The notes: generated by a model from the sequence alone, not told the origin. DNA of 29,332 nucleotides from a virus (IMGVR_UViG_3300049445_000358), one strand, 5' to 3'; shown: positions 7,547-21,417, counted from the stretch's first letter. Numbers and translations: made by a program.

Positions 7547-9286
7547 TCACCTGAACCGCATCAGAGAGCCCACTGCCGCAGCTGTTGTCTGCGGGGTCTC
7601 ATCCGACACGTATTCCAACCGACCCTTCTGCTTCCGGCGACGAATGCCGTCGTGCAGACCGTCAGCATTGAGGTCTTCGAACTCGATAGGCCAGGGAGCA
7701 TAGCCCGACTGAGAGGCCTCCTCGTTGACGGCCTTGTCGAACATCGTCTGAGATATGAGCACCTTCTCAGCCGGCTTTGCATCCTGAGATTGCTTGTCTT
7801 CTTCCTTCGGAACAATAGTACTGTCGCTCTGTTGACCAACGACGTTCTGAGCTCCTGGATCGCCTGAGGCTGCTAGCCTCGCAGCCGCGTCCGGGCTCGT
7901 AAACGTCGTAATCGGGATGTAGCCCTGCTTCGTCAGGACCATCGGCGTTGAAAATGGGCCTCCTAAAGGCTCCTTGCCCAGATGCAGACGGACATCGTCG
8001 ATCGCGAGGACTCCGGCCTTCGCATAGCCAGTGTCGATCTCCATCGCAGTCTTCGGATCCTGCTCTCGGATCTCAACGAACTTGAACTCCAGATCGGGCG
8101 ACTTGAAGTCTTCTACGATAATACGGTCCATGACCGTCTTCACGTAGGACTGATTCGGCTCTAAACCGGCCTCGAGAGCTCGAGTGTTCGACTTCTCGAC
8201 AACGCCTCGACTGACGTGCTCGATGAACGGATCCGGAGCAATGGCGAAGGTAAAGCAGATGACTCGCGCCAGGTACTCGTCGAAGATGTCTTTTAGCGGA
8301 GGAGACTTGGTCTCCTGGTACTTGAACTCCCCGGGGACCATACGAAGGCGGCGTCTGGTTGCCAGATTCCCTGAGAGGAGGGCATCCATCCAGTCTTGGA
8401 AGTCCTTGATCTGCTGGAGGTTCCACTCCTTTGGGAGCCCCATGAAAGCGTCGGGCTGCGATCCCTCGGTGTAGTAGGAGAGTTGGAATAGTGTACGACG
8501 GATGGCCGTGTTGATCGTGACGATGATCTGCTCGACCTTCGAATAGCCGTACATGTCGTGTGTACGGTAGTTCCAGGGGAGGTAGAGCAGCTCTTCCGTC
8601 GTGAAGTCTGCTGCTGGAATACCGTGCAGAATCTGCTGGTATGCAGGATCGGGAGGCATCGGCCTGCGACCGTCTGCAGCCAACAGGGGCTTGATCGTCG
8701 CTCCATCGATCAGCTCGAGGGCGTACAGCGTGCCGTCACGAGCACGTCTGCGCCATATCGAGGCTGCGTCGATGACGAAGACATCCTCCATCCACGCTTT
8801 GAGCCACTGATCCCAAGGCAGCTCGCGGTCGGGATATTGAAGGAAGTCCGTGATCGTCTTGATCCGATCTTTTGTCTCCTGAGGGAGCTTTGGATTGGCA
8901 TCTGCTCCTTGCTTGGCCCAGAGCTTAGGGTCGCCTCTACCTGCTTCCCTCGGTCGGATGGTCCAGTCCAGAGACGACATCTGGTCCTTACGGGACTCTA
9001 ACGCAATCCGAACCAGGTCGCAATTATCTGCCAGAGCTCGCAAGACACCGAAGGAAACCGGCTCGTTTGAGCGAGGATTATAGTTGAGGTTGACGCCCGT
9101 CGGGTAATCGTACCGACGGCCTTTGACTCCCTCCTGGTCCTGAGGAGCCATTGGGGCTAATGGTTGCATCGGGCCGAACCATGTCGTAGGTTCGACTCCG
9201 GTAATCACATACCGAGCAACTTGCGTGGCTCTCCTAGCCATACCGGCTAAAGACGTCACTCTTGCTCCAGGAGGGATTGCTGCCAC
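7547..9286 (-). CDS. Portal protein
   Basis: 579 aa with 'LRALADNCDLVRIALESRKDQ', 'LELIDGATIKP', 'YQQILHG', 'YGYSKVEQ' and 'YYTEGSQP' motifs characteristic of phage portals. It lies between TerL and the protease. Confidence 0.9.
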   Translation of the reverse strand: MAAIPPGARVTSLAGMARRATQVARYVITGVEPTTWFGPMQPLAPMAPQDQEGVKGRRYDYPTGVNLNYNPRSNEPVSFGVLRALADNCDLVRIALESRKDQMSSLDWTIRPREAGRGDPKLWAKQGADANPKLPQETKDRIKTITDFLQYPDRELPWDQWLKAWMEDVFVIDAASIWRRRARDGTLYALELIDGATIKPLLAADGRRPMPPDPAYQQILHGIPAADFTTEELLYLPWNYRTHDMYGYSKVEQIIVTINTAIRRTLFQLSYYTEGSQPDAFMGLPKEWNLQQIKDFQDWMDALLSGNLATRRRLRMVPGEFKYQETKSPPLKDIFDEYLARVICFTFAIAPDPFIEHVSRGVVEKSNTRALEAGLEPNQSYVKTVMDRIIVEDFKSPDLEFKFVEIREQDPKTAMEIDTGYAKAGVLAIDDVRLHLGKEPLGGPFSTPMVLTKQGYIPITTFTSPDAAARLAASGDPGAQNVVGQQSDSTIVPKEEDKQSQDAKPAEKVLISQTMFDKAVNEEASQSGYAPWPIEFEDLNADGLHDGIRRRKQKGRLEYVSDETPQTTAAAVGSLMRFR

Positions 9287-9336: not shown

Positions 9337-9366
9337 ATTATGAAACACGTTCCTCTTGGACCTCAA
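9337..9366 (-). promoter_or_regulatory. Putative sigma70-like promoter for portal/head genes
   Basis: Minus strand reads TTGAGG-N18-CATAAT in the AT-rich intergenic gap upstream of the portal. Confidence 0.4.
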
Positions 9367-9408
9367 GAGAAATCTTTAGAGCGACCATAATTTAACCATC
9401 CGAGGCAT

Positions 9409-10065
9409 TTAGAACCGATATATGCCCCAGAATGTGTTCCGGCTGACCTCCTCTCCGACGACAAAGGGGTCCATCATACCCTCCCGGACAACCTGGTAAG
9501 AGATCTCGTGGAGGAGGTTGCGGATGTCGATACCGTCATCCTCCCACATCATCATTGGCTCGGCTTCTACCGGGACGACTCTTCGTCGTTCGTTCACGAC
9601 GAATAGGCAGCCGTCACGCTTCTGCAAAGCCAAAGCTATCTGCTTTATGTCATCTTCGGGATTCAGGCAGTGCTGGAGAACCCACACAGCCAATGCGATA
9701 TCGAAGGCTCCTCCGTCCAAGTTGACTAGGTTGAGGTACTCAGGAGAGCACGTAGCAAACCTGTTATCCTTGACATAGTCGACCGCCAGAGCCCGCATCG
9801 TATAGCTGATGTCTACGCCAAGAACATAGGCGTCATAGGCCTCGATCATGGCCTTAGACATCCTACCAATGCCACAGCCGTAATCGAGTACGCGGGTATC
9901 CAGTCCTTGAGGAGAGCACTGTTGAAATATCAGCCTGCTGAGGTACGGAGTCTCCCTCTCCCAGCGCTCGTCTGTTGTCTGACCTGACTGGGGAGTCAGG
10001 ATGACAGCTTTCGCCTGCTGCTGGTTTCGGACGTTGTAGACCCCCGGGAAGTAAGTACGGATCAT
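9409..10065 (-). CDS. Class I SAM-dependent methyltransferase (not DNA-MTase type)
   Basis: Motif I 'VLDYGCGIGR', post-I 'VLGVDIS', and 'FDIALAVWVLQH'. No DPPY/NPPY/PC catalytic motif. Its start overlaps the GT stop (ATGA). Confidence 0.85.
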   Translation of the reverse strand: MIRTYFPGVYNVRNQQQAKAVILTPQSGQTTDERWERETPYLSRLIFQQCSPQGLDTRVLDYGCGIGRMSKAMIEAYDAYVLGVDISYTMRALAVDYVKDNRFATCSPEYLNLVNLDGGAFDIALAVWVLQHCLNPEDDIKQIALALQKRDGCLFVVNERRRVVPVEAEPMMMWEDDGIDIRNLLHEISYQVVREGMMDPFVVGEEVSRNTFWGIYRF

Positions 10066-11417
10066 GGCTGCACCTTCTTCCCGAGTTCCCGCATCAGGCG
10101 GGTACGTACATTATCGACGACTGGACCCCAGTCATTCCACCTCTTTTGCCGGACTAAGGTGACCGAGGGATACCACGGAGTCTTCTCGCCTGATGCACCC
10201 CAGGGCCAGTAGGGCTCCTTACAGAGCATCACGTACGTGGGTACACCGAGAGTTCCTGCCAGATGAGCGATGGAGGTGCAGGAGGTCACAACTACGTCCA
10301 TCTTCATGATGGCAAGTGCCGTATGCGTCCACACATCCAGCTGGGGAGACAGGTCGTGGATGAATCGATCCATCCCGATCTCGGCTATCTCCGCCGATTG
10401 TGGCCCAACTTGCAGACTATAGAGCCAGAAGAACGGGCTGTCCGCCAGCGAGCATAATGTCTTGAGAGGAACCGAGCGATCCTTGTTGCGCGGGAAGTCA
10501 GGTCGACCGGACCAGCAGAGACCGATCTTGAGAGCTGGCTTGACCTGAGGTTCGGGAATGTCAACCTTGATCGTATGATCAACCACGTCGGCTAGGACCC
10601 TGTTCCTAATTGTCTTTGACGGTCTGGGCACCTCGTTCAGGCTGAGGTTGAGAACTGCAGGTATCGTCCCGAGATGGACATGGTAGTCGGTTTTGACAAT
10701 AGGGGCTCCGGCATGCAGGAGCTGAATCCCTCTATCCTGGAAGTCCCATAGGAGAGGAACCAGTTGGGGCACTGTTGAGAAATAGACAGACTCAGCGTTA
10801 TCAAAGCATCCATGCTCGAGGAATCGGGAATACATGATCGTATCGCCAATACCTTGGTCGTGCAGGATCCTGATCGACCTGCCAGCCAAGGACTGCCCCA
10901 CCCAGGGCTTACTCGGCAAGTCCCGCTCGATTTCGAAGAAGTCCTTCTCGATCCGCAAGTGGTAGTTCTTCCACCCCTTCTCGTAGTTTCCTACCAAAAG
11001 GTTCAGCAGGCTCAGATTCCATTTGGCGTCGCGTCTGTCCGGATCGATTTTCAGAGCCTCGGAGAAGGCCTTATCAGCCTCCCGGTATTTCCCCAGAGAC
11101 ATCTGGACGTTGCCCATCGACAACAGGCCTGACACCCTACTCATGGGTTCAGGATGATGGTTGTAGTCCAGAGAGCGTTGAGCGCAGAGCAGAGCCTCAT
11201 CGTAGGCTCCCATACCCCACATCACGGACGATAGGTTTGCCCACAGCTGGAAGTTCTCCGGGCTCGAGGATAGTGCTCGACACAAAGCTGCTTTGGCTCC
11301 GAAGAACTTCTTCTCTTCGACCAGCTGAGATGCTAGTTTATTCGAGTTGGTTAGGGCCTGTTTGATCTTCTCGTCGGCATCGTCGGACAATTCGATGGTT
11401 TGCTGGTTGTTGCTCAC
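10062..11417 (-). CDS. TPR-repeat + GT-B (GT9-like) glycosyltransferase
   Basis: N-terminal TPR-like repeats ('ALSSSPENFQLWANLS', 'ALKIDPDRRDAKWNLSLLNLLVGNYEKGW'), followed by 'HDQGIGDTIMYSRF', 'KIGLCWSG', 'DVVVTSCTSIAHLAGTLGVP' and 'TPWYPSVTLVRQ...W'. Confidence 0.85.
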   Translation of the reverse strand: MSNNQQTIELSDDADEKIKQALTNSNKLASQLVEEKKFFGAKAALCRALSSSPENFQLWANLSSVMWGMGAYDEALLCAQRSLDYNHHPEPMSRVSGLLSMGNVQMSLGKYREADKAFSEALKIDPDRRDAKWNLSLLNLLVGNYEKGWKNYHLRIEKDFFEIERDLPSKPWVGQSLAGRSIRILHDQGIGDTIMYSRFLEHGCFDNAESVYFSTVPQLVPLLWDFQDRGIQLLHAGAPIVKTDYHVHLGTIPAVLNLSLNEVPRPSKTIRNRVLADVVDHTIKVDIPEPQVKPALKIGLCWSGRPDFPRNKDRSVPLKTLCSLADSPFFWLYSLQVGPQSAEIAEIGMDRFIHDLSPQLDVWTHTALAIMKMDVVVTSCTSIAHLAGTLGVPTYVMLCKEPYWPWGASGEKTPWYPSVTLVRQKRWNDWGPVVDNVRTRLMRELGKKVQP

Positions 11418-11647
11418 AGATAGATCCTTTCTTTACTCAGGTCGACACGGAGACCAGGGCCTTCCATGTCATCTTTTGCCCGATCAAACAACTCTTCGAG
11501 TCGATCGAGCTCCTCACCATCAGGACTCGTCTCGCTCAAAAGACTACGCCGGATGATTTTCCACGCCTCAGCGGCGAACTCGCTCCCCTTGAGCGACATT
11601 TCAACCACGTCGACAACTAGTCTGGGATTTTCAGTGATAATACTCAT
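11414..11647 (-). CDS. Hypothetical protein
   Basis: 77 aa, overlaps both neighbours by 4 nt (translational coupling). Confidence 0.65.
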   Translation of the reverse strand: MSIITENPRLVVDVVEMSLKGSEFAAEAWKIIRRSLLSETSPDGEELDRLEELFDRAKDDMEGPGLRVDLSKERIYL

Positions 11648-12279
11648 TGAGTCGCCAACTTTGCAGCTATCTCACGTGCAGTGCCCACTGCGGCTTGTTC
11701 AGCAATCTCTTCTGGTGGCTGCGCCCACGCTAAATAGATCACCCCAACAAACGCAGTGTGGTGTGGTGGAATCGGAACAGCACATCCACGCCTCATGTTG
11801 CGCTCAAATAGGCGTCTGCTTAGAGGCCCCTTCTCTTCCGACAAATCAACACAGACCGGGCTACCTTCGAGTACTTGTACAAGTTTTCGCATATCTGAAG
11901 TGGTCACGATAACAGGTAGACGGCGAGGATTTGGAATGACAGGACGTTCTCCATCGCGTCGCCTAGCTGCAATGAACTTTTGAGAATTGCTGCCTAGGTC
12001 AATCGACCAAATCTGCACTAAATCGGCTCCAGTCTGCTCAACTAAATGGCTAAGTGCTTGCGGTATCTCGTGAGTCTTGAGCACAACCTGGTCAGGAGTC
12101 AACCACGACTCGATAATCGCTTCACGATTCTCGTAGAGTACCCATCCAGTCCCTCCTATAATGAACAGCAGGATTACTACTGCCGCTTTCCAGGGAGAGT
12201 CAATATACCCCAGGATCTGGCTGATTATGCCAGCAATACCTCCAGGGGAGGGCTGTAGCGGAGCAGGAGGTTCGGTCAT
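11644..12279 (-). CDS. Single-TM protein with C-terminal GAF-like domain (T4 T-holin-like architecture)
   Basis: 211 aa with a TM segment 'AAVVILLFIIGGTGWVLY'. The C-terminal 'GCAVPIPP...FVGVIYLAW...AAVGTAREIAAKL' is GAF-like. Two Cys. Overlaps the TerL stop by 4 nt. Confidence 0.55.
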   Translation of the reverse strand: MTEPPAPLQPSPGGIAGIISQILGYIDSPWKAAVVILLFIIGGTGWVLYENREAIIESWLTPDQVVLKTHEIPQALSHLVEQTGADLVQIWSIDLGSNSQKFIAARRRDGERPVIPNPRRLPVIVTTSDMRKLVQVLEGSPVCVDLSEEKGPLSRRLFERNMRRGCAVPIPPHHTAFVGVIYLAWAQPPEEIAEQAAVGTAREIAAKLATQ

Positions 12280-14213
12280 CGCTGGCCTGGGCGTTGTTCG
12301 GCTATTTCGGCCTCCATCTTGCGTACGCGAGACACTTCCTCCTGCATGTACGCAATGAAACCCGCTCCAACGACATGAGGACGTGCATGAGCAATGACAA
12401 CCGCATCGCCCTTATCAGGTGATCGTCCCAGTCGGGCTTTGACATGCTCCTTGGGCTCCACCAAAATCCCTCGGGGGGTTAGGGACCACAGAGGCGCAGT
12501 TAGATCAGCCAAGAGTCCCGGATCGGGTGGCAGAGCTAAGTCCTCTCCCAGGTCTGGATCAAGGGCTTCTCTGAATTTCCACCACCATTCCGCTCGAGAA
12601 TTCGCGAAACCTAGCTTGCCAGAGCGATCTTTTGCGATGGACTTCTCTGACATGATCATCGGAATGATGTCCATCTGCATCATTTTGCCGATATCGACAG
12701 GAGCTGTGCCGACACCAGTTACGTCAATCTGAATGCGTCGCTTCGCAAACCCGTGATCGATCAGGAGCTGGATGATCTGGTTACCATCCTTGGTTTGTCT
12801 TCCAGGAACCGCTAAGAGATTGGCAAACCAGTTCTCTAATCTGTCGACGATGATGGTCTCATCCTTGCCACCACGTGACACGTCTACGCCAACAGCGCTC
12901 TCGCGTTCAGCAGTTGCTAGCCTGATCTGCAGTTCTTGATTGGTTTTTGGCGCAGGAGGTAGCTTCTTCGCGATGTTATGCTGTGTGATCGCGTAGGTGT
13001 CTGTCCCAGAGAATCCTAGGAGTGATTCTGGTATCGGGATGTCTTCTCCACCCTTGCGGCGGGGCAGATCCTCAGACGCGGGCCGACTGAATAGTGGCGG
13101 CGGGAGCCGTTGGTTGGACGCAGACGCCAGGTCTTCCGCTATTTCTGAGGCCTCCTCAGGTTTTTCCTCCTTGTCTATCTCCTCGTGGATCTTCTCCAGA
13201 CGTGCTTTCTCTTGCTTCTCCAGGAATGCCTCAAAGGTGGAGGCCCATCTGGCTTGCGCCGCCAACACCCAGTCCGTCGGGATAACTTGCCATTCGTGAT
13301 CTTCTTGACCGACACCGAAATCTCCTCTCAACATCCGTGAACGCAGGGGTTCTGGCAACCCCTGTAAGGTGCGCCGATACCCAGTCTCCATGAGTCTGGG
13401 GTTGTCTTCGACCCTTGCTCGGATGAAAGTGCGGGATTTTGGGTAAACTAAGTCGGTTTCTCCTCCCTCGTACGTGATTTCTACAGGATCGGGTCCGTCT
13501 ACCTCCATGTCTTCGCCATCAGGTCCGACGATGTACCAGCGTAACTCGCCCTGTTTTGCTGGGTTTGGATGCCTTGGGTCGAGCCATGGACCCCAGTACT
13601 TGATGACCCACTGTCCTTGAGCATCAACAGGAGGATTCCCAGTCGCTATGATCCTCACCCGCTGTCTTTGGCGAGTCGTGCGATTCCAGGTGCCTAAGAA
13701 CCGGTACTGTTTCTCGGAGAACTGTGTAATTTCGTCAAAACCCTTGAGATCGTGAGGTCGACCTTGGAACTTCTGTTCGTCGCCCTCGTATTGGCAGGCA
13801 CCGAACTCGATACGAGCACCTTTGAACTCCCCCTCTAAGATGCGCCAGAGTTCAAGCTGGCCATTGAACTTGCCGATTTCAGCAAACAGCTCTTCAGAAC
13901 GCTCCCGAATGCCTTTGAGCTCGGCATACTCACGACGGAAGATGATCGTACGCCAGTGTCTCGTTAACCCAGCTCCAAGTAGGAGGTCGGTCTTGCCCCC
14001 TCCAGCAGCTCCACCATAGAAGAGCTCATCCGCTATGCAGTCCAGCGCAATCGATTGGGGTCCTTCAAACGGCACCCAGATCGGTGTGTGGATACTTGAG
14101 AGCAGTCGGTCGATCTCCTCCCTCTCCTGATAGGTCAGGTAAGGCAGAAGGTCATTATACTCCTCCACGCGAGCCGCGATGGCAGTAACCGACGCTCTTC
14201 GGAGATCCGACAT
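12276..14213 (-). CDS. terL: Terminase large subunit
   Basis: Walker A 'YGGAAGGGKT', Walker B 'GFDEITQF', 'ATGNP', 'FIRARVEDNPRL', nuclease 'GVDVSRGGKDET' and 'RLGRSPDKGDA'. The start is placed at ATG 14213 just after the upstream stop, not at 14330. Confidence 0.95.
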   Translation of the reverse strand: MSDLRRASVTAIAARVEEYNDLLPYLTYQEREEIDRLLSSIHTPIWVPFEGPQSIALDCIADELFYGGAAGGGKTDLLLGAGLTRHWRTIIFRREYAELKGIRERSEELFAEIGKFNGQLELWRILEGEFKGARIEFGACQYEGDEQKFQGRPHDLKGFDEITQFSEKQYRFLGTWNRTTRQRQRVRIIATGNPPVDAQGQWVIKYWGPWLDPRHPNPAKQGELRWYIVGPDGEDMEVDGPDPVEITYEGGETDLVYPKSRTFIRARVEDNPRLMETGYRRTLQGLPEPLRSRMLRGDFGVGQEDHEWQVIPTDWVLAAQARWASTFEAFLEKQEKARLEKIHEEIDKEEKPEEASEIAEDLASASNQRLPPPLFSRPASEDLPRRKGGEDIPIPESLLGFSGTDTYAITQHNIAKKLPPAPKTNQELQIRLATAERESAVGVDVSRGGKDETIIVDRLENWFANLLAVPGRQTKDGNQIIQLLIDHGFAKRRIQIDVTGVGTAPVDIGKMMQMDIIPMIMSEKSIAKDRSGKLGFANSRAEWWWKFREALDPDLGEDLALPPDPGLLADLTAPLWSLTPRGILVEPKEHVKARLGRSPDKGDAVVIAHARPHVVGAGFIAYMQEEVSRVRKMEAEIAEQRPGQR

Positions 14214-14215
14214 GG

Positions 14216-14542
14216 CTAAGGCCGGGGAACGCAGACGATGTAGGCGAACAGGTCGTCCTTGATGCCTGCTGTCGTCGTTATGAATGCCGTCAGCTTGTAC
14301 CGGCAGTTCTCTACCAAGCTGTCCAGCCATGCAGAGGCTAGAGCACCCGACGAGCCCTCATTAGAGATATGGCTAGAAGGGCTTGGATCATCTGCTGTAT
14401 ACACGTCGGTAGGAGCTACAACCAGCTCCCAAGTTACCGACGCAATTGTGTCGTCTGATGGCATCCTGAGCGAGAAATCATACGTGTAGGGACGTTTGAT
14501 TGTGGGGTCTACAGGATCCCAGTCTTTGCCGACATAAGCCAT
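14216..14542 (-). CDS. Putative fibre adaptor protein
   Basis: 108 aa, 'DPTIKRPYTYDFS...DDTIASVTW...AWLDSLVENCRYKLTAFITTTAGIKD'. It resembles the small beta-sandwich KDP...DY.FDW fibre-adaptor family that follows fibre genes. Confidence 0.6.
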   Translation of the reverse strand: MAYVGKDWDPVDPTIKRPYTYDFSLRMPSDDTIASVTWELVVAPTDVYTADDPSPSSHISNEGSSGALASAWLDSLVENCRYKLTAFITTTAGIKDDLFAYIVCVPRP

Positions 14543-14545
14543 GTC

Positions 14546-17500
14546 TTACTCCCGTTTGCCTCCTTTGAGGGTGAAGAACCCTGGCGACCCTCGGAGGCCG
14601 AAGTTCACTGCTGATCGATACTCACGCCCTGTCGCCGGACCCTCTACGGCATCGTCAGCTGGTGAAGCCGTTGGTTGGACTCCAGGAGTCCCTACCAACA
14701 TCGTCTGTGTTGCAAACCCGGTCTCAGTTGTTTCTTCAGGTGTGCCAACTGAGCTGCCGTCGAAAGGAGGTCCAACAAGTATGTCGTAGGCGGGACCGAA
14801 AATCTGTATCGTGTAGAAGTCGGTGAGGGAGATAGTCTCTTCGACTGAAACGGAGTATGTTGCGCCCCCGGTAACCGTATCTTGGAGGTCAATCGTTTCA
14901 GTAACTGTATCGTTATAAGTGATTCCGCCAGTCGGGGTATCCTGAAGGTCTATACTCTCTGATACGGACTCCTGAACGTCAACTTGGGAGTCTTGTACAT
15001 CGAGCAGGCTGATAGTCTCCTGGATATCAACTGCATAGTCAGTGGTAGCGTCTGTACTGTCCGCCAGACTAGATGACTCGTCTACAGAATCGACCAGATC
15101 TACCAGGGCATCAGTACTGTCTTCTAGGTCGAACGACTCGTCGACAGAGTCAACGATGTCTACAAGGGCATCCGAGGTATCCTCTAAAGACATAGACTCG
15201 TCGACTTCTACAACCAAGACCTGTCCGTCGGTTGAGCTGAAGTCCTCTAACTCTAAGGCTTCATCAGTGGACACATCATAGGAGGCCGTTGTACTCGATG
15301 AGTCTAAGAAACTCATGGACTCCGAGACATCACTGACTAAAACTGCAATCGTCGAAGGAGCATCGACGAGGCTTATTGCCTCTGAGACGCTGTCGCTTAG
15401 GACTACAGTAGTATCTGGGGAGTCCAGGAAACTCATTGCCTCCGAGACACTGTCGACTAATACTACAGTCGAATCAGTAGAGTCTGCAAGAGAAATAGCC
15501 TCCGAAACGCTATCTGCCGTGGAGAGGCTTGCGTCAGTTGCGTCTGTTAGGCCGATCGCCTCCGAAGTTGCTGCTGGATAGGCTGCAGTACCGTCATTGG
15601 TATCCGCCAAACCGAGCGACTCGGAGACACTGTCATTCAAGATTGCTGTCGAGTCTTGAGCCTCTAACAGAGACAGCGACTCATCGACGCTATCGACTAG
15701 AATAACGTTTGCATCCTCCGTGTCTGCTAAAGCTAATGCCTCTGGAACTGTTACGTTGTAGACTGCAATTGAGTCATTAGTATCCACTAACGACATGGAC
15801 TCAGAAACGCTATCAACTAAGATAACTGTTGAACTAGTTGTGTCAACTAGAGATACTGACTCAGCGACACTATCAGCTACAACAAATGAAGCATCTGTAG
15901 CATCGGATAAAGACAGGGCCTCTACCACACTGTCTACTACCGCGACCAGAGCGTCAGTTGTATCGGACAAAGATACCGACTCTGACACACTATCGACGAG
16001 GATGGCAGTCGTGTCTTCAGTATCTGCCAACACTAATGCTTCCGAGACTAACACATTATTGACTGCAATGGAATCTATAGTATCTGCCAGAGATACCGAC
16101 TCGGAGACACTATCTGCAACAGTAACGGAAGAGTCAGAAGCATCTGCCAGCAACATCGTCTCTGAGACACTATCAGACAGGCTTACTTGTGCGTCTGTAA
16201 TATCAGCAAAAGAGATTGTCTCTGAGACACTGTCTACAATAGATGCACTAGTACTTGAACTGTCTACTAAGGCGATAGCCTCCGAAGTAGTTGCAGGATA
16301 AGTTGCCGGACCGTCGCTGGTATCAACTAGACCGACACTCTCGCTAACACTATCGACTATGGTAATAGAAGCGTCGGAAGTATCGGCTAGAGTTAACGAT
16401 TCGTTAACTGAGTCGACTAGACTCACTTGTGTGCTGGAAACATCCGCTAGAGAAACGGCTTCTGAGACACTGTCTACTACGGTGACTAGAGCATCTTCAG
16501 CGTCAACTAACGAAATTGCCTCTGAAGTAGTTGCAGGGTAGGTCGCTGGTCCATCAGTGATATCTGATAGTACCAACGCTTCAGAGACGCTATCTACTAC
16601 TGTTACAAGAGCATCGGAGGCATCTAACAGTGCAATATTCTCCGAGACACTGTCTACTACCGTTACAAGAGCATCGGTAGCGTCAGCAAATGACATTGTC
16701 TCTGAGACGCTATCGGATATCAGTGATCCTGTAGTACTGGTGTCTACTAGATTAATCGCCTCATCCGTTTCAACGTTATAAGTAGTTGTTGTATCTTCAG
16801 TATCTGCTAGGCTGATACTCTCCGAGACGCTATCTACAACGGTGACTAGAGCATCCTCCGTATCTGCCAGAGACATCGTTTCTAAGACGCTATCGACGAC
16901 CGCCACAAGAGCATCGGAGGTATCTGCCAGTACCATAGCTTCTGTAACGCTGTCTGCCACAGTGACTAGAGCATCGGTAGTGTCTAAGAGGCTGGCCGAC
17001 TCTGCTAGAGTGGCAGGGTAGGTTGCTGGTCCGCTTGTTGTGTCTGCTAAACTGATAGTCTCTGATATACTGTCAACTATGACTACTAAAGCATCTGTAG
17101 TATCAACTGACGAAATAGCCTCATTAACACTATCCGCGACGTCTACGTTAGCATCGGTAGTGTCTTGTAAAGAAAGCGCTTCTGAGGCACTGACATTATT
17201 GATGGCGATGCTATCATTGGAGTCTACCAATGACATCGATTCTGAGACGCTATCAACAACAGTCACAAGAGCGTCAGTGGTGTCCGCAGTAGCCAAAGTC
17301 TCTGAGACACTGTCAACTACGGTCACGAGAGCATCAGTAGAGTCTAGCAGACTTATCGCTTCTGCCGAGACAGCAGGATAGATTGCAGGGCCGTCAGTAG
17401 TGTCTACAAGGGAGATGCTCTCCAAGACGCTGGCGAGGAAATCAATATCGGCATCAGAAGTATCCGACAGAGAAATAGTCTCTGAGACGCTAACTAAGAA

Positions 17501-18691
17501 GTCAATGTCTGAGTCCGAGGTATCCGACAGAGAGATAGCCTCATTGACGCTATCAGCAACATCAACATCAGCGTCTGAGCTGTCGAGGAGGCTTACTGCC
17601 TCAGCTACAGTTCCTGGGTAGGCCGCCGTCCCTGTATTGGTGTCTACTAAACTAATCGTTTCAGCAACACTATCTGCTACATCAACATCTGCGTCGGACG
17701 TGTCGGCGGCAGAAATAGCCTCACTGACGCTAGCTAGGAAGTCTATATCTGCGTCTGAACTATCCAGTAAGGAGAGGGCTTCTGAAACACTGACGTTATT
17801 TACGGCGATACTATCGACGGTATCGACTAAGGAGAGATTCTCAGCTTGACTTACCAAAAAGTCGATGTCTGCGTCTGAACTGTCTGCCAGAGAAATGCTC
17901 TCAGATACGCTATCTGCAACGTCGACGTCTGCGTCTGACGTATCTGCCAGAGCGACAGCTTCTGCAACAACAGCAGGATAAGTAGCTGTGCCTGTATTGG
18001 TGTCCACCAAACTAATAGACTCTGAAACGCTGTCAGCTACGTCTACATCGGCATCAGAGTTGTCTGCCAATGTAATAGTTTCACTAACGCTAACTACAAA
18101 ATCAATGTCGGCATCGGAGGTATCCGCTAAGGAGATCGCCTCTGCAACGCTGACATTATTGACGGCTATCGTGTTGATAGTGTCGACTAATACCAAACTT
18201 TCAGATGCTGTCACTACAAAGTCGATGTCAGCGTCTGAACTATCTAACAGAGAAATACTTTCACCGACACTGTCGGCAACACCTACATTGGCATCAGAGC
18301 TGTCGACCAGAGAAACGCTCTCCGAGATACTGTTTACAAAGTCGATGTCCGCGTCGGAAGTATCAGCCAGAGAGATGGCCTCTGTAATACTGCCTAGAAA
18401 GTCAATGTCAGCGTCAGAGGTATCAACGAGGGAGATTATTTCTGCAACGCTAACGTTATTGATAGCAATTGTGTCAACAGTGTCCACCAAAGAGGTAGCC
18501 TCAGATGTGCTGTCTACTATAGAAACCTGCGATGAGACAGTGTCTGCCAAGGATACAGCCTCACTAACTGTACTCGGAAGGACCACCAAGCTGCTAGGAG
18601 TATCAGCCAGGCTAACAGCCTCAGCAACAGAGACAGACCAGATTATGCGGTCTGGCTCTCCTAGTGCTAAGGTTCCAAGACTATCAAACAT
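14546..18691 (-). CDS. Giant acidic Ser/Thr/Asp-rich tandem-repeat protein (putative long virion fibre)
   Basis: 1381 aa with about 64 copies of a 20-aa unit (consensus near DSVSEAISLADTSDAxVxx). It sits in the fibre module. Confidence 0.8.
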   Translation of the reverse strand: MFDSLGTLALGEPDRIIWSVSVAEAVSLADTPSSLVVLPSTVSEAVSLADTVSSQVSIVDSTSEATSLVDTVDTIAINNVSVAEIISLVDTSDADIDFLGSITEAISLADTSDADIDFVNSISESVSLVDSSDANVGVADSVGESISLLDSSDADIDFVVTASESLVLVDTINTIAVNNVSVAEAISLADTSDADIDFVVSVSETITLADNSDADVDVADSVSESISLVDTNTGTATYPAVVAEAVALADTSDADVDVADSVSESISLADSSDADIDFLVSQAENLSLVDTVDSIAVNNVSVSEALSLLDSSDADIDFLASVSEAISAADTSDADVDVADSVAETISLVDTNTGTAAYPGTVAEAVSLLDSSDADVDVADSVNEAISLSDTSDSDIDFLVSVSETISLSDTSDADIDFLASVLESISLVDTTDGPAIYPAVSAEAISLLDSTDALVTVVDSVSETLATADTTDALVTVVDSVSESMSLVDSNDSIAINNVSASEALSLQDTTDANVDVADSVNEAISSVDTTDALVVIVDSISETISLADTTSGPATYPATLAESASLLDTTDALVTVADSVTEAMVLADTSDALVAVVDSVLETMSLADTEDALVTVVDSVSESISLADTEDTTTTYNVETDEAINLVDTSTTGSLISDSVSETMSFADATDALVTVVDSVSENIALLDASDALVTVVDSVSEALVLSDITDGPATYPATTSEAISLVDAEDALVTVVDSVSEAVSLADVSSTQVSLVDSVNESLTLADTSDASITIVDSVSESVGLVDTSDGPATYPATTSEAIALVDSSSTSASIVDSVSETISFADITDAQVSLSDSVSETMLLADASDSSVTVADSVSESVSLADTIDSIAVNNVLVSEALVLADTEDTTAILVDSVSESVSLSDTTDALVAVVDSVVEALSLSDATDASFVVADSVAESVSLVDTTSSTVILVDSVSESMSLVDTNDSIAVYNVTVPEALALADTEDANVILVDSVDESLSLLEAQDSTAILNDSVSESLGLADTNDGTAAYPAATSEAIGLTDATDASLSTADSVSEAISLADSTDSTVVLVDSVSEAMSFLDSPDTTVVLSDSVSEAISLVDAPSTIAVLVSDVSESMSFLDSSSTTASYDVSTDEALELEDFSSTDGQVLVVEVDESMSLEDTSDALVDIVDSVDESFDLEDSTDALVDLVDSVDESSSLADSTDATTDYAVDIQETISLLDVQDSQVDVQESVSESIDLQDTPTGGITYNDTVTETIDLQDTVTGGATYSVSVEETISLTDFYTIQIFGPAYDILVGPPFDGSSVGTPEETTETGFATQTMLVGTPGVQPTASPADDAVEGPATGREYRSAVNFGLRGSPGFFTLKGGKRE
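14800..18640 (-). repeat. Degenerate 60-bp coding tandem repeat (about 64 units)
   Basis: The 60-nt period is visible as vertical alignment in the 60-nt lines, e.g. 'tctgagacac tgtc' recurring in the same column. Confidence 0.9.
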
Positions 18692-18695
18692 CTCG

Positions 18696-18875
18696 CTACT
18701 TTAATCGTTCAAGCTCCGCTATGTGATCTAGAGCCTCTTTGAGTTGGCCCTTCAGCATCAAGTTCTCAACTTCCAGATTAAGAGCTCGTTGCACCCATGA
18801 GTTCCTTTGCTCAACAATGATCTCCGTAGCTGTTGGTAGCCTTACCGGCTCGATAGTTTTCGGGTTATCGGACAT
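18696..18875 (-). CDS. Small coiled-coil protein (possible fibre chaperone)
   Basis: Not in the ORF track (59 aa): MSDNPKTIEPVRLPTATEIIVEQRNSWVQRALNLEVENLMLKGQLKEALDHIAELERLK. It fills the gap between the flanking genes. Confidence 0.65.
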   Translation of the reverse strand: MSDNPKTIEPVRLPTATEIIVEQRNSWVQRALNLEVENLMLKGQLKEALDHIAELERLK

Positions 18876-18876
18876 T

Positions 18877-19128
18877 CTACGGGATGGGCTGGACTACAAT
18901 AGCAGCCACACCCACAGCCTTTTCCTGGTTCATTGTGTTGCTTTTCAGTTCATCAAAGATCTGAGCCTCTATACGAGACCAAACCGCCTGTGTGGAGGCT
19001 CCTGCAGGCGCTCTAAGAATGGCCCGATATGCTTCAATAATACGGGTAGCATTAGCATCGGTGAGAGAGGAGGTCTCCGTCAGAGTCCCTCCAGTATCCA
19101 GAGCCATCGTCATCGTGAAAATAGCCAT
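18877..19128 (-). CDS. Hypothetical protein (fibre module)
   Basis: 83 aa, SD AAGGA, co-oriented. Confidence 0.65.
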   Translation of the reverse strand: MAIFTMTMALDTGGTLTETSSLTDANATRIIEAYRAILRAPAGASTQAVWSRIEAQIFDELKSNTMNQEKAVGVAAIVVQPIP

Positions 19129-19140
19129 TGACTCATTCCT

Positions 19141-20826
19141 TTATGAGGAGGGAGCGGCAATCTGTATGAAGTGGATGGTTAGTCGTACCCGACCAACATT
19201 GGTGGCTGGAGTGCCTCCAGCAGGAGTAATTACTATTGGTGTAGCTGCGCCGTAGAACCCGGCGGTAACTGCACCGTTAACGGCGGTGGTGTTAATAGCC
19301 ACTGAGATACCTGTACCGTAACGAGTAGTTGCCCCACCTACACCAACACTGAAAGAAGTCGCAGGAGCAGGAATTGCCGTAGTAACCCGGACAGAGACTC
19401 CGATCACAAACGAGTTGGTCGGTATTTGTATGGTCGACGTTGTAGAAGCGGCTGCTGCGATAGTAACATTCTCGGTGATCTGCTGTATCGCAGTGTATTG
19501 ATTGTTGTTGGCGTCAATCGTGTAAATACTTGCAAGGTTCAAGAAGCTGGAGTAGACTCCGAGACCGCCATTATCTATAGTAGCTCTATTGTTGTTATTA
19601 GTCCCGAATAAAATAGACAGGTTTTCATAGCACCAGATGTACGAGAAGTTGCCGTCAGCTATACCAATTTCAAATCCATCAAGGTCTGTTATGCCTGAGG
19701 CCGACGTATGAAAGATAACAGACGCCTGAGAGCCGGAGGTAGTGATATCCAGCGTCTTAGTCGAGACTGGAGCGAGAACACCGATACCTACCGAACCGGC
19801 GTCGGTCAGACTCAGGAGAGGTATAGTGGATCCAGAATTGTAGAACACAACACCGCCAGTATCAGTATTCCTAATGTAGAAGTGAGGATTCGCTCCAGAG
19901 TCGAAGTTCTTGCCTAGAATACCACCCCCTGCTTCTACACCATATACTCCGCTAACAGACGTATAGTTAAAAGTACCCTTGCCAGTAACAGAGAGGTTTG
20001 TCGCACCTGGATCTGTCGTATTACCTAAAGAGAGGCCGCCGGAAGCGTGTAGACGAAGGCGCTCTGCAAAAGTACCTCCCGAGTTCATGGTACTGACATT
20101 AAAGTTCGCAGGGACTATGCCAGTAGAGACTGTCCCTTCAACTTGTCCTCGGAGAATGACCGAGTTGACGGGAATATTACCGTTGGCAGAGGCGTCATCA
20201 CCCCAGCCCTCAATCTGGAACAGTCTATCTCCTGCTACTACAGCAGCTGCCGCAGCAAACGTACCCCGACTCTTACCGAATCTATGAACAGGTCCGTTAG
20301 TATTAGCTGCAAATCTGGCGTTACTAGCTCCGTTCTGACTGCTTAGAGTACTGGCTCCTTGTAGCCCTCCCACCAAGAGGCCGGACTGCCCTACTTCTAA
20401 GGCACCAGCCGTGGCGGCGGAGATATTTAGTCCTACTCCTGTTGCGTCTCCTATATTTGGAGTTATTAACGTGGGGGAAGTCTGTAAGACCAGGTTTCCC
20501 GTGCCGGTTGCCGCAAAGTCAGAAGCTCTCTGGCAGAAGAAAACCTGTGCAGTACTAGACATAGTTATGCGGGTGCTCCCGGCAACACCCGCTATTATAG
20601 AGAAAGGCGTAGCGTCTCTCGTAAGAGTTGGCCCCGTCGTAGAGTAGGACCCAGTTCCTAGTTCACTATTGACTCCGTCAGCTATACCGTAGACGACAGT
20701 CGTTCCATTGGGAACACCAACATCCGAAGGCAGAGCACGCCCGTCTACACGAGCGCCTACTGTGAGAGTGGCTCCACTCCCTGTTGTTGGTGTAAAGAAC
20801 CGAACCAGGTCCCACGGCTGCTGCAT
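19141..20826 (-). CDS. Fibre / receptor-binding protein
   Basis: 561 aa, Gly/Thr/Ser-rich. The N-terminus 'DLVRFFTPTTGSGATLTVG...TVVYGIADGVNSELGTGSYSTTGPTLTRD' matches a common fibre N-terminal domain. 'ERLRLHASG' and 'GSVGIG' are beta-helix motifs. The C-terminal 'IQIPTNSFVIGVSVRVTTAI...GRVRLTIHF' resembles the C-domain of DUF2793-type alphaproteobacterial phage/GTA fibres. Confidence 0.75.
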   Translation of the reverse strand: MQQPWDLVRFFTPTTGSGATLTVGARVDGRALPSDVGVPNGTTVVYGIADGVNSELGTGSYSTTGPTLTRDATPFSIIAGVAGSTRITMSSTAQVFFCQRASDFAATGTGNLVLQTSPTLITPNIGDATGVGLNISAATAGALEVGQSGLLVGGLQGASTLSSQNGASNARFAANTNGPVHRFGKSRGTFAAAAAVVAGDRLFQIEGWGDDASANGNIPVNSVILRGQVEGTVSTGIVPANFNVSTMNSGGTFAERLRLHASGGLSLGNTTDPGATNLSVTGKGTFNYTSVSGVYGVEAGGGILGKNFDSGANPHFYIRNTDTGGVVFYNSGSTIPLLSLTDAGSVGIGVLAPVSTKTLDITTSGSQASVIFHTSASGITDLDGFEIGIADGNFSYIWCYENLSILFGTNNNNRATIDNGGLGVYSSFLNLASIYTIDANNNQYTAIQQITENVTIAAAASTTSTIQIPTNSFVIGVSVRVTTAIPAPATSFSVGVGGATTRYGTGISVAINTTAVNGAVTAGFYGAATPIVITPAGGTPATNVGRVRLTIHFIQIAAPSS

Positions 20827-20829
20827 AGA

Positions 20830-21417
20830 TTACGCCGCGAGAGAGTAGCTCACATTGATCGTGTCGCCGTTCAGCACTGGGCGATCGCCGCCGGTGAACA
20901 GGCCTGCTGACAGCAGCGTCCCAGCGGTGTTGGCGATAGTCGAGAGAGCACCAGTACCCGTCCAGATCGCGCAGCCCTTGACCGTCCCGGTCCCTGTGAT
21001 CGCAAAGACCAGAGCTGCCGAAGTCGCTTTCACGCCTGCGGATGCAGCAGAGAATACGACGGTTTTACGAGGGATCGTGTAAGTCGGAGCGTTCGCCACA
21101 CCTGCTTCGAGCCAGCCCGCATGTGAGGCTGACGTGTCTGCCGCGGATATCGCCGAGAACGAAGCACTGCTGATCAGACCCATGAAGGGGCCGACGGTTG
21201 TGTAGGCAGACCCGGCAAGAACCGTATCGAGCACCAGGTTCTTCCCGATGGTCATGACGGTGTTCTTGAAGTCTTCCTTCCAGATCAGCACTCCCTCGCG
21301 GTAGTGCTCGAGATGGAACTCACCCTCGAGCAAGAACTTCTCGAAGTGGGCGATCGACCGGATCACCTGGGCGTCCTGGACGGAACGGGACCTCATTCCT
21401 TCACGAATTGTTTGCAT
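20830..21417 (-). CDS. Virion structural protein (fibre-module associated)
   Basis: 195 aa with 'WKEDFKNTVMTIGKNLVLDTVLAGSAYT...FMGLIS...GTLLSAGLFTGGDRPVLNGDTINVSYSL', a widespread phage structural family found next to fibre genes. Confidence 0.7.
   Translation of the reverse strand: MQTIREGMRSRSVQDAQVIRSIAHFEKFLLEGEFHLEHYREGVLIWKEDFKNTVMTIGKNLVLDTVLAGSAYTTVGPFMGLISSASFSAISAADTSASHAGWLEAGVANAPTYTIPRKTVVFSAASAGVKATSAALVFAITGTGTVKGCAIWTGTGALSTIANTAGTLLSAGLFTGGDRPVLNGDTINVSYSLAA

What the first reader, a model, noticed from the sequence alone, without database searches (positions are those of the whole stretch)
9409..18691. Candidate virion glycosylation system: TPR-glycosyltransferase + methyltransferase beside a mucin-like Ser/Thr fibre
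Seen: a TPR+GT-B gene and a coupled non-DNA SAM methyltransferase are embedded by 4-nt overlaps between terL and the portal. A 1381-aa Ser/Thr-rich repeat protein lies just upstream of terL. Established: the TPR+GT-B architecture is that of Caulobacter FlmG-type flagellin O-glycosyltransferases, where the TPR binds the protein acceptor. Some actinobacteriophages glycosylate virion proteins using GTs encoded among structural genes. Inference: this phage may O-glycosylate a fibre or capsid protein and methylate the sugar, using host nucleotide-sugars, since no sugar biosynthesis genes are in the window. I am not aware of this being described for a TPR-GT in a proteobacterial phage.
Basis: partly seen in the sequence, partly recalled or inferred. 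Interest (0 to 1): 0.8.

Follow-up and report, generated by a model that had tools for sequence, protein, structure and literature searches.

The report
Phage fibre-linked protein glycosylation gene pair
An uncultured phage, probably of a Gram-negative host, carries a sugar-adding enzyme with a protein-binding arm and a partner methyltransferase, both coupled to its DNA-packaging gene; related phages keep the same pair around fibre genes, so it probably decorates a particle fibre, though no sugar has been shown.

Summary
Window 10062-11417(-) encodes about 3.5 TPR repeats plus a GT-B domain. AlphaFold2 gave pLDDT 93.5, and the best structural matches are GT9 heptosyltransferases, including the protein O-heptosyltransferase TibC (Z 16-18). 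Window 9409-10065(-) is a class I, non-DNA SAM methyltransferase. terL, p211, p77, TPR-GT and MTase are chained by four 4-nt overlaps. The closest cultured relatives, two Brevundimonas phages, have terL abutting portal, so this block is an insertion.

The 1381-aa protein is not mucin-like. It has 64 in-register 20-residue acidic repeats, modelled at low confidence as a beta-solenoid. It lies next to a Gp77-type fibre-tail adaptor gene.

The GT belongs to a 12-member, phage-only clade (support 0.974). In this clade the MTase is retained or fused. In relatives, GT and MTase bracket fibre genes or a conserved ~226-aa S/T-rich phage protein. The clade has Cys where the wider family has Asp (DTS motif).

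The closest GT+MTase relatives lack the 1381-aa protein, so that specific pairing is not supported. The most likely function is cytoplasmic glycosylation and methylation of a virion fibre protein (about 0.5). No glycan, donor or acceptor is shown.

Earlier notes of this scan report similar TPR-GT9 + MTase cassettes on other DNA in at least 16 genomes. My literature searches found no published description.

The parts
10062..11417 (-). TPR-GT (P0001, 451 aa): about 3.5 TPR repeats (res 13-141), linker, GT9-like GT-B domain (res ~174-450). GTG start with an AAGGA ribosome-binding site 8 nt upstream.
   Evidence: D192 in the G-x-G-D motif is invariant; T381 and H385 are invariant; Cys380 sits where the wider family has Asp.
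9409..10065 (-). Class I SAM-dependent methyltransferase (P0002, 218 aa). ATGA overlap with the TPR-GT stop codon.
   Evidence: Its family is found only beside GTs of the window's 12-member Cys-type clade, and is fused to the GT in L013 and P0017.
11414..11647 (-). p77, a small acidic protein with 4-nt overlaps on both sides. A 36%-identical homologue sits directly upstream of the TPR-GT in L003/L004.
11644..12279 (-). p211, a protein of unknown function with one predicted N-terminal membrane helix (phrog_31287). ATGA overlap with terL.
12276..14330 (-). Large terminase subunit.
   Evidence: phrog_979, E 5e-37.
14216..14542 (-). orf108, a homologue of the podophage GP4 fibre-tail adaptor/collar protein gp77.
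   Evidence: PF23148, 32.3 bits against a cut-off of 27. Homologue in L003. PMC13730344 describes GP4 gp77.
14546..18691 (-). rep1381 (P0003): 64 in-register 20-residue repeats, consensus VSEAISLADTSDALVTVVDS, with a ~90-aa non-repeat C-terminus. Predicted beta-solenoid rod. Candidate acceptor, unproven.
   Evidence: GC is 0.48 against 0.55-0.63 in neighbouring genes.
19141..20826 (-). p561, an unknown protein in the same low-GC block upstream of rep1381. Possible fibre partner.
   Evidence: (C-terminus matches phrog_15388).
7547..9286 (-). Portal protein, at the downstream border of the inserted block.
9350..9372 (-). 9-bp hairpin in the 122-nt MTase-portal spacer. No better than chance as a terminator.

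Best explanation
The block terL-p211-p77-TPR-GT-MTase is an accessory insertion in the head/neck gene cluster of a siphovirus-like phage, probably of a Gram-negative host.

Proposed mechanism (all steps inferred):
1. Late in infection, in the cytoplasm, the short TPR arm of the 451-aa enzyme binds a phage structural protein, most likely a fibre attached at the collar.
2. Its GT9-like GT-B domain transfers a sugar from a host-made nucleotide sugar onto Ser/Thr of that protein.
3. The coupled SAM methyltransferase then methylates the sugar or, less likely, the protein.

In this phage the best acceptor candidate is the 1381-aa acidic beta-solenoid encoded four genes upstream of the TPR-GT, beside a Gp77-type fibre adaptor. 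This would parallel Aah/TibC heptosylation of beta-helical autotransporters.

Shown here: the folds, the conserved motifs, the gene coupling and the synteny in relatives. Inferred: enzymatic activity, donor, acceptor and order of steps.
For: 1. Fold and motifs: the GT-B domain is closest to GT9, including the protein O-heptosyltransferase TibC. The whole-protein architecture matches TPR-GT enzymes OGT/SPY. G-x-G-D Asp192 is invariant across 48 homologues.
2. Late, coupled expression: four 4-nt overlaps run from terL to MTase.
3. It is an insertion: Brevundimonas phages Polewnik and Strzyga (portal 43% identical) have terL directly abutting portal.
4. Synteny in the 12-member phage-only clade (FastTree support 0.974):
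   - L003/L004 (terL about 60%, portal 63-71% identical) run terL, p77 homologue, TPR-GT, collagen-like protein, 1193-aa fibre (Gp34_trimer + Peptidase_S74), MTase, portal.
   - Nine loci have TPR-GT followed by a conserved ~226-aa S/T-rich phage-only protein. In five of them (plus L013, where the MTase is fused to the GT's N-terminus) the MTase follows, and tail protein phrog_5939 or collagen-like fibres come next.
   - The MTase is fused to TPR-GT in L013 and P0017.
   - Homing endonucleases have inserted between the genes, yet the pair is kept.
5. An independent GenBank podovirus, MW202512.1, has MCP, TPR-GT, FkbM methyltransferase, galT-like GT and a tail gene in a row.
6. The 200-residue rep1381 fragment that was modelled comes out as a beta-solenoid: Z 15-19 to autotransporter and adhesin beta-helices and Z 13-15 to phage tailspikes. 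S/T are enriched at fixed repeat positions. It sits next to a Gp77 adaptor homologue.
7. Aah and TibC use LPS-pathway heptose to O-glycosylate autotransporters (PMC3835316).
8. Phage virion glycosylation exists in mycobacteriophages (cited in PMC12619734).
Against: - There is no biochemical evidence of any glycan.
- rep1381 is absent from L003, a closest relative that keeps GT+MTase (L004's fetched DNA does not reach upstream of terL), and has no relatives in IMG/VR. The acceptor in this phage is therefore a guess.
- The conserved ~226-aa protein of the sister loci is absent here.
- Pfam's GT9 model is matched only below threshold (10.4 bits against 22). The profile against PDB reaches WaaC only at E 0.94.
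- The clade has Cys where the wider family has Asp, so an ADP-heptose donor is doubtful.
- Neighbours of more distant phage homologues are heterogeneous. Bacterial homologues are hugely paralogous, with uninformative neighbours.
- All MTase-linked cases belong to one clade, which amounts to one evolutionary event.
- The rep1381 model has only pLDDT 68.6 and was built from a self-alignment of repeats.
Confidence: 0.5

Rival explanations
1. Host-directed modification. The enzyme pair alters a host surface structure or host protein: LPS core (the canonical GT9 substrate), or flagellin or pilin as FlmG does. The purpose would be to block superinfection or release-trapping, or to remodel the host. 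The location in the structural operon would then be incidental, a moron hot spot.
For: - GT9 enzymes classically heptosylate LPS (one search matches to WaaC and WaaF).
- FlmG-type TPR-GTs act on flagellin in Caulobacter and Brevundimonas, and Brevundimonas hosts the closest cultured relatives.
- The block is accessory and absent from several relatives.
- Neighbours of distant phage homologues are heterogeneous.
Against: - LPS heptosyltransferases have no TPR arm.
- The genes are translationally chained to terL rather than having their own early or lysogenic promoter.
- In relatives the pair brackets fibre or structural genes, and the pair is retained or fused.
- No flagellin or Pse/Leg genes were seen among the larger ORFs scanned in the record.
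Confidence: 0.2
2. Virion protein modification, but of a different acceptor: capsid, portal/neck, tail tube, or distal tail proteins lying beyond the contig end. rep1381 would be unrelated.
For: - L071 (portal 45% identical) has an Asp-type TPR-GT between the portal and the protease/scaffold-MCP genes.
- MW202512.1 has it just after the major capsid gene.
- Pfam tallies of neighbours include three MCP hits and one portal hit.
- Mycobacteriophages glycosylate the capsid and tail tube (PMC12619734).
- The record is cut inside the tape measure gene, so distal tail genes are unseen.
Against: Within the window's own clade the genes bracketed or adjoined are fibre-like or S/T-rich proteins, not MCP or portal.
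Confidence: 0.15
3. Non-transferase role. The TPR-GT is a catalytically altered GT-B protein serving as a fibre-assembly chaperone or scaffold, and the MTase acts independently, for example on RNA or a small molecule.
For: - There is a Cys in place of the family's Asp.
- The GT9 sequence signal is sub-threshold.
- The PHROG label for the MTase family is 'tRNA methyltransferase'.
- TPR proteins are often chaperones.
Against: - Strong conservation of the G-x-G-D Asp and the T/H motif, plus 10 invariant columns across 48 homologues.
- The Cys variant is itself conserved in a clade.
- Fusion of the MTase to the TPR-GT argues for a shared substrate.
Confidence: 0.1
4. DNA hypermodification. A GT-B enzyme and a methyltransferase beside the packaging genes modify phage DNA.
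For: - T4-type DNA glucosyltransferases are GT-B enzymes (my own knowledge).
- Position next to terL.
- Phage GTs that glycosylate DNA are reviewed in the works cited in PMC12619734.
Against: - The TPR arm points to a protein partner.
- The closest folds are GT9, not DNA GTs.
- The MTase lacks DNA-MTase motifs.
- No hydroxymethyl-pyrimidine pathway genes were seen among the scanned ORFs.
Confidence: 0.03

Closest known systems
FlmG, the flagellin O-glycosyltransferase of Caulobacter crescentus and Brevundimonas subvibrioides (PMC7591256; bioRxiv 10.1101/2022.03.25.485807)
   Same: Soluble two-domain enzyme: an N-terminal TPR arm that binds the protein acceptor and a C-terminal GT-B domain of about 290 residues that sets donor specificity. 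Acts in the cytoplasm on a protein that later assembles into an extracellular filament. The host family of the closest cultured phage relatives is the same.
   Different: FlmG is 596 aa with a ~310-aa TPR region; here the TPR arm is only about 150 aa. FlmG uses CMP-Pse or CMP-Leg and is said to be confined to Caulobacterales (10.1101/2023.12.03.569772). No flagellin or nonulosonic acid genes were seen among the ORFs scanned here. A methyltransferase partner is not part of the FlmG system. Sequence homology to FlmG could not be tested.
Aah/TibC autotransporter heptosyltransferases with AIDA-I/TibA (PMC3835316; PDB 4rap)
   Same: A GT9-like GT-B enzyme (Z 16.4, 250 residues aligned) that O-glycosylates Ser residues of a long beta-helical repeat protein, using a host LPS-pathway sugar and needing no sugar-biosynthesis genes of its own. 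The enzyme gene lies in the same operon as the acceptor.
   Different: TibC has no TPR arm and forms an iron-containing dodecamer. Here a TPR arm is present, the family's Asp is replaced by Cys, and a methyltransferase is coupled. The acceptor would be a phage protein and is not adjacent (3.1 kb away).
LPS heptosyltransferases WaaC/WaaF and other GT9 enzymes (PDB 2h1f, 1psw, 3tov; Pfam PF01075)
   Same: Best structural matches (Z 16.5-18.1). A G-x-G-D motif near the N-terminus of the GT domain and a T-x-x-x-H motif in the C-terminal lobe.
   Different: Pfam GT9 is matched only at 10.4 bits (cut-off 22). There is a TPR fusion. The substrate is presumably a protein rather than lipid A-Kdo. Cys replaces Asp in the DTS/DTG motif.
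Mycobacteriophage virion glycosylation (Freeman et al. 2023, known here only through PMC12619734 and PMC11256854)
   Same: Phage-encoded glycosyltransferases whose products decorate virion structural proteins.
   Different: Those are actinobacteriophages, and their acceptors are the C-termini of the capsid and tail tube subunits. I could not read the paper, so the enzyme families were not compared. No TPR-guided GT is mentioned in the papers I could read.
GT41 O-GlcNAc transferase / SPINDLY
   Same: TPR superhelix followed by a GT-B catalytic domain. These are the top whole-chain Foldseek hits (E 4.5e-10).
   Different: Low TM (0.26-0.38). Taken alone, the catalytic domain matches GT9 better with a rigid fit (rmsd 3.3 A against 11-17 A).

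Membership tests
GT9 (CAZy family 9 / Pfam PF01075 Glyco_transf_9) | GT-B fold with two Rossmann-like lobes, superposable on solved GT9 enzymes | tested here: met
   3tov Z 18.1 (253 aa, 3.3 A), 1psw Z 18.0, 2h1f Z 16.5; nearest ESM Atlas clusters carry PF01075.
GT9 (CAZy family 9 / Pfam PF01075 Glyco_transf_9) | Score above Pfam's gathering threshold for PF01075 | tested here: not met
   10.4 bits against a cut-off of 22 (E 0.008); no hit. Distant homologues P0044, P0047, P0050, P0055 and P0058 do carry PF01075.
GT9 (CAZy family 9 / Pfam PF01075 Glyco_transf_9) | Conserved Asp in the N-terminal G-D motif (WaaC Asp13 from my memory) and Asp of the C-terminal D-T-G-x-x-H motif (WaaC Asp261 from my memory) | tested here: inconclusive
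   Asp192 in G-I-G-D is invariant. The second position is Cys380 in all 12 members of the window's clade and Asp in 108 of the 128 GT domains extracted for the tree. The mapping to WaaC rests on a weak HMMER alignment (E 0.94) and on memory.
GT9 (CAZy family 9 / Pfam PF01075 Glyco_transf_9) | ADP-heptose as donor | not testable with these tools
   Needs an enzyme assay.
FlmG class of flagellin O-glycosyltransferases | N-terminal TPR domain plus C-terminal GT-B domain in one soluble polypeptide | tested here: met
   definition from PMC7591256.
FlmG class of flagellin O-glycosyltransferases | Sequence homology to FlmG (CCNA_01524) | not tested
   The FlmG sequence could not be obtained.
FlmG class of flagellin O-glycosyltransferases | Flagellin acceptor and Pse/Leg donor pathway | tested here: not met
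   No flagellin or nonulosonic-acid genes among the ORFs scanned in the 54.9-kb phage record. A host-supplied donor cannot be excluded.
Aah/TibC (BAHT) protein O-heptosyltransferases | GT9-like fold similar to TibC | tested here: met
   4rap_A Z 16.4, 250 aa, 3.3 A.
Aah/TibC (BAHT) protein O-heptosyltransferases | Iron-binding finger and dodecameric assembly; no TPR | not tested
   Oligomer and metal site were not modelled. The presence of a TPR arm is a clear architectural difference.
Aah/TibC (BAHT) protein O-heptosyltransferases | Enzyme gene adjacent to the gene of a beta-helical repeat acceptor | tested here: inconclusive
   rep1381, a predicted beta-solenoid, lies 3.1 kb upstream in the same transcriptional direction. 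It is absent from relatives that keep the enzyme.
GT41 (OGT/SPY) | GT41 catalytic lobes as the best match of the catalytic domain | tested here: not met
   GT41 entries align only with rmsd 11-17 A (5djs, 2jlb, 8dtf), while GT9 entries fit at 3.3 A. One search hits reflect the shared TPR+GT-B layout (TM 0.26-0.38).
Phage virion glycosylation systems (mycobacteriophage type) | Glycans demonstrated on virion proteins, dependent on phage GT genes | not testable with these tools
   Uncultured phage; needs glycoproteomics.

The most novel reading that the evidence does not exclude
A phage-only clade of TPR-guided, GT9-like enzymes with an Asp-to-Cys change in the sugar-binding motif works with an obligate SAM methyltransferase partner (sometimes fused). 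Together they lay a ladder of methylated sugars onto collar or neck fibre proteins. Here the target would be a ~30-nm acidic beta-solenoid of 64 identical-length coils. If so, this would be a virion protein glycosylation system in phages of Gram-negative bacteria, mechanistically parallel to AIDA-I/TibA heptosylation and distinct from the mycobacteriophage systems.
Probability: 0.25. Interest if true: 0.8.

Novelty: new variant of a known kind. Interest (0 to 1): 0.55.

Why it matters
Glycosylation of tailed-phage virion proteins by the phage's own enzymes has, in the papers I could find, been shown only for mycobacteriophages, where it shields virions from antibodies.

If TPR-guided GT9-like enzymes decorate the fibres of phages of Gram-negative hosts, that has several consequences:
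- It adds a widespread layer of virion surface chemistry (hundreds of metagenomic phages), relevant to receptor binding, stability, immune recognition of therapeutic phages, and structural models that ignore glycans.
- It provides compact acceptor-specific O-glycosyltransferases for glyco-engineering.
- The Cys-type clade with a fused or coupled methyltransferase offers a directly testable enzyme/acceptor set: the GT, the MTase, and the sandwiched 226-aa protein or fibres.

Tried and rejected
- **FlmG homology.** I tried to reach the C. crescentus sequence through genome searches. Handles from other tools' loci carry no taxonomy, and control genomes give no loci. This stays untested.
- **Single-sequence scan of viral contigs with P0001** found nothing. 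The alignment-based scan worked.
- **Relatives of rep1381.** None in IMG/VR. In the protein collection there are only weak repeat-level hits, best E 3e-25.
- **The ~226-aa S/T-rich protein.** Searched in the window's genome by tblastn and HMM: absent. The E 0.06-0.4 tblastn hits inside rep1381 are low-complexity noise.
- **Pfam tallies of neighbours.** Those of distant phage homologues and of bacterial homologues gave no common partner. No P0002-type MTase lies beside the 80 bacterial homologues.
- **Profile of the GT domain against PDB sequences.** It gave spurious KaiC P-loop hits (E 0.012) and WaaC only at E 0.94.
- **Foldseek of the repeat model.** No significant hit. VIA-align did give beta-solenoid matches.
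- **First self-alignment of repeat segments (A4).** It collapsed onto overlapping identities and was discarded in favour of non-overlapping segments.
- **Promoter and terminator scans.** No better than shuffled sequence.
- **Readings rejected.** 'Mucin-like' for rep1381; a DNA methyltransferase reading of the MTase; GT41 membership.

Full report
**Source and gene map.** The window is bases 5091-34422 of a 54,873-bp IMG/VR virus record, estimated 85% complete. All genes of interest are on the minus strand. In the direction of transcription the order is:
- p435
- GH19 endolysin (23979-24644)
- an Rz-like protein, then small ORFs, then p195
- p561 (19141-20826)
- the 1381-aa repeat protein (14546-18691)
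- orf108 (14216-14542)
- terL (12276-14330)
- p211 (11644-12279)
- p77 (11414-11647)
- TPR-GT (10062-11417)
- MTase (9409-10065)
- portal (7547-9286)
- a 262-aa protein
- a 1057-aa protease/scaffold-like protein
- a 517-aa capsid-region protein (phrog_13692)
- a head-tail adaptor

The record's left end is cut inside a tape measure gene, so this is a siphovirus-like phage whose distal tail genes are unseen. A spanin-like gene and the nearest cultured relatives point to a Gram-negative, possibly alphaproteobacterial, host. Those relatives are Brevundimonas phages vB_BpoS-Polewnik and Strzyga, with portal 43% identical.

**Checking the observation.** The junctions terL|p211, p211|p77, p77|TPR-GT and TPR-GT|MTase are ATGA, ATGA, GTGA and ATGA. 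This is a chain of four 4-nt overlaps, which argues for coupled late expression. The MTase is followed by a 122-nt spacer before the portal gene. In Polewnik, terL directly abuts portal, so p211, p77, TPR-GT and MTase form an inserted accessory block.

**TPR-GT.**
- Sequence methods see only TPR repeats at residues 30-150.
- An AlphaFold2 model built on 48 homologues has pLDDT 93.5 and pTM 0.91. It shows seven TPR helices (13-141), a linker and a two-lobed Rossmann-type domain.
- An exhaustive structural comparison places residues ~174-450 closest to GT9 enzymes: 3tov Z 18.1, WaaF 1psw Z 18.0, WaaC 2h1f Z 16.5, and the autotransporter O-heptosyltransferase TibC 4rap Z 16.4. About 250 residues align at about 3.3 A.
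- Foldseek on the whole chain returns OGT and SPINDLY, which reflects the shared TPR+GT-B layout (TM 0.26-0.38).
- The ESM Atlas and BFVD agree on GT9. BFVD also lists phage proteins named 'Glycosyl transferase, family 9' and 'Aah/TibC'.
- At sequence level the link is faint: PF01075 scores 10.4 bits against a cut-off of 22, and WaaC is reached only at E 0.94.
- Ten columns are invariant across 48 homologues, including Asp192 of G-I-G-D and Thr381/His385.

**MTase.** It is a generic class I SAM enzyme (Methyltransf_11/23/25, E about 1e-10). It has no DNA-MTase motif, and its PDB relatives are small-molecule or protein methyltransferases. Its substrate cannot be read from sequence.

**How common the family is.** The GT domain family is very large. 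There are more than 587 confirmed hits in IMG/VR and more than 596 in bacterial genomes of many phyla. In a sample of 301 alphaproteobacterial genomes, 118 have a match. That tally includes one unpublished genome, G242, and no claim here rests on it specifically. One Azospirillum brasilense genome has 21 copies. Bacterial neighbours are mostly further TPR paralogues.

**The window's clade.** A FastTree of 128 GT domains puts the window's protein in a 12-member, phage-only clade with support 0.974. Three features mark this clade:
- *Cys for Asp.* All members have Cys in the motif C-T-S-x-A-H. Asp occupies that position in 108 of the 128 domains in the tree and in all 40 Asp-type viral loci examined.
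- *The MTase partner.* The window's MTase family occurs next to the GT in 9 of the 13 records of this clade (the 12 tree tips plus L004, which duplicates L003): G000, L003, L004, L005, L006, L009, L010, L011 (two copies) and L013. It occurs next to none of the 40 Asp-type viral loci or the 80 bacterial loci. In L013 and in P0017 the MTase is fused to the N-terminus of the TPR-GT.
- *What lies between or beside the two genes.* In L003/L004 (terL about 60%, portal 63-71% identical) the order is terL, 117 aa, p77 homologue, TPR-GT, a collagen-repeat protein, a 1193-aa fibre (Gp34_trimer + Peptidase_S74), 150 aa, 95 aa, MTase, portal. In nine other loci the GT is followed directly by a conserved ~226-aa S/T/A/G-rich protein (S+T 23-29%). 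That protein has no Pfam or PHROG match and its Atlas neighbours are phage-only clusters. In five of these nine loci the MTase comes next, sometimes after inserted HNH or GIY-YIG homing endonucleases; in L013 the MTase is instead fused to the GT. Tail protein phrog_5939 and large collagen-like proteins come next.

In L012 the GT carries an N-terminal DUF5672 domain instead. Outside the clade, GenBank podovirus MW202512.1 has major capsid protein, two hypothetical proteins, TPR-GT, endonuclease, FkbM methyltransferase, galT-like protein and a tail gene in a row. L071 has an Asp-type TPR-GT between portal and protease/scaffold.

Repeated pairing with methyltransferases of two different families, repeated placement among virion genes, and retention of the pair through rearrangement and fusion together form the main argument for one shared, protein-linked substrate.

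**The 1381-aa protein.**
- *Composition:* S 17.4%, D 14.0%, V 13.9%, A 11.6%, T 10.6%, K+R 0.5%, P 2%.
- *Repeats:* it consists of 64 repeats of exactly 20 residues with only one single-residue register slip. The consensus is VSEAISLADTSDALVTVVDS. Conservation by position is Glu3 100%, Asp9 98%, Leu7 89%, Ser20 73% and Ser6 68%.
- *Why it is not mucin-like:* a mucin-like region would be Pro-rich and disordered, and this protein is neither.
- *Model:* a 200-residue segment was modelled with five other non-overlapping segments as its alignment. The result is an all-beta structure with two strands per repeat, but confidence is low (pLDDT 68.6).
- *Structural matches:* Foldseek finds nothing significant. 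VIA-align superposes the model on beta-solenoids: a Dot T4SS component Z 18.9, Parabacteroides adhesins Z 17.3, the Vag8 autotransporter Z 15.8, a Ca-dependent antifreeze beta-helix Z 15.3, and phage tailspikes and Agrobacterium phage 7-7-1 tail fibres at Z 13-15.
- *Size:* at one coil per repeat this would be a rod of roughly 30 nm (my inference).
- *Neighbour:* the gene immediately downstream, orf108, passes Pfam's threshold for Gp77, the fibre-tail adaptor/collar protein of podophage GP4 (32.3 bits against 27; PMC13730344). L003 has a homologue in the same place.
- *GC content:* the repeat gene (GC 0.48) and p561 (GC 0.51) are lower in GC than most flanking genes (0.55-0.63), as expected for an exchangeable host-range module.
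- *Co-occurrence:* the repeat protein has no relatives in IMG/VR. In the protein collection there are only weak matches that share the 20-residue repeat. It is absent from L003 (L004's fetched DNA starts inside terL and cannot show this).

A fibre role is therefore plausible. Its pairing with the GT rests on proximity and on an analogy, not on co-occurrence.

**Mechanism.** The best-supported reading is protein O-glycosylation in the cytoplasm late in infection. The TPR arm would select a virion (fibre) protein, as the TPR arm of FlmG selects flagellin (PMC7591256). The GT9-like domain would transfer a host-made sugar, as Aah and TibC take heptose from the LPS pathway to modify beta-helical autotransporters (PMC3835316). 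The MTase would methylate the product. I put this at about 0.5 for 'a virion protein, most likely a fibre' and about 0.25 for rep1381 as the acceptor.

The Asp-to-Cys change suggests that the donor differs from that of canonical GT9 enzymes. rep1381 has almost no lysine, so lysine methylation of it is excluded. A sugar O-methyl group is the simplest reading; carboxyl methylation of its many Asp/Glu residues is a more remote possibility.

The rivals are host-surface or host-protein modification (0.2), another virion acceptor (0.15), a non-catalytic chaperone role (0.1) and DNA modification (0.03).

**Comparison with what is known.** The architecture is that of FlmG, but homology to FlmG could not be tested here. 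The fold is GT9, yet Pfam's threshold is not met and a family-wide Asp is replaced. The resemblance to Aah/TibC-AIDA-I/TibA is functional and at fold level only. Virion glycosylation by phage GTs is known for mycobacteriophages (Freeman et al. 2023, read only through PMC12619734 and PMC11256854). My literature searches found no paper describing a TPR-GT in a phage structural module. Earlier notes of this scan, which are unchecked AI notes, report similar TPR-GT9 + methyltransferase cassettes in at least 16 other genomes. This instance is therefore one more member of a recurring but unpublished pattern.

**Verdict.** This is a new variant of a known kind, with interest 0.55.

Noticed in passing
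window 14546-20826: The repeat gene (GC 0.48) and p561 (GC 0.51) are lower in GC than most flanking genes (0.55-0.63). This suggests a horizontally exchanged fibre or host-range module.
   Followed up: partly
window 3433-6606 (-): A 1057-aa protein has head-maturation-protease-like PHROG matches near its N-terminus (res ~77-340) and a weak DUF6582 hit. This may be a large protease-scaffold fusion. Relatives have a 922-aa version (L071).
   Followed up: no
window 20830-21417 (-); L030, L032, L040, L044, L050: p195 (no Pfam or PHROG match) has 36-43% identical homologues in an unrelated group of phage contigs. Those contigs also carry a TPR-GT, of the Asp type, about 8 kb away on the other strand.
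   Followed up: no
L010:12010-12693, L008:12105-12779, L011:12171-13259: HNH and GIY-YIG homing endonuclease genes are inserted between the 226-aa S/T-rich gene and the MTase. L011 also has two tandem MTase copies (13287-13958 and 13931-14614).
   Followed up: partly
L012:8333-10408: The TPR-GT carries an N-terminal DUF5672 domain (E 1.3e-11) in place of a neighbouring MTase. From memory, DUF5672 may be GT-A-like; this was not verified.
   Followed up: no
L170 (GenBank MW202512.1, 16561-31637): A complete 44.4-kb podovirus genome has major capsid protein, two hypothetical proteins, TPR-GT, endonuclease, FkbM methyltransferase, galT-like protein and 'phage stabilization protein' in one run. This is an independent GT+MTase cassette in a structural module.
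   Followed up: partly
G001 (Azospirillum brasilense genome behind L105): There are 21 separate matches to the GT domain in one genome, several of them in tandem. This is a very large paralogous TPR-GT9-like family of unknown acceptors.
   Followed up: no
window 25943-26434 (-): A 163-aa ORF has GC 0.40 in a genome of ~0.55-0.60 GC. A 39% identical homologue lies upstream of the p435 homologue in L003.
   Followed up: no
P0069, P0068, P0071: Other large uncharacterised proteins contain runs of the same 20-residue '..SES.tLsD.tDAl...' repeat behind unrelated N-terminal domains. This is an unnamed repeat family.
   Followed up: partly
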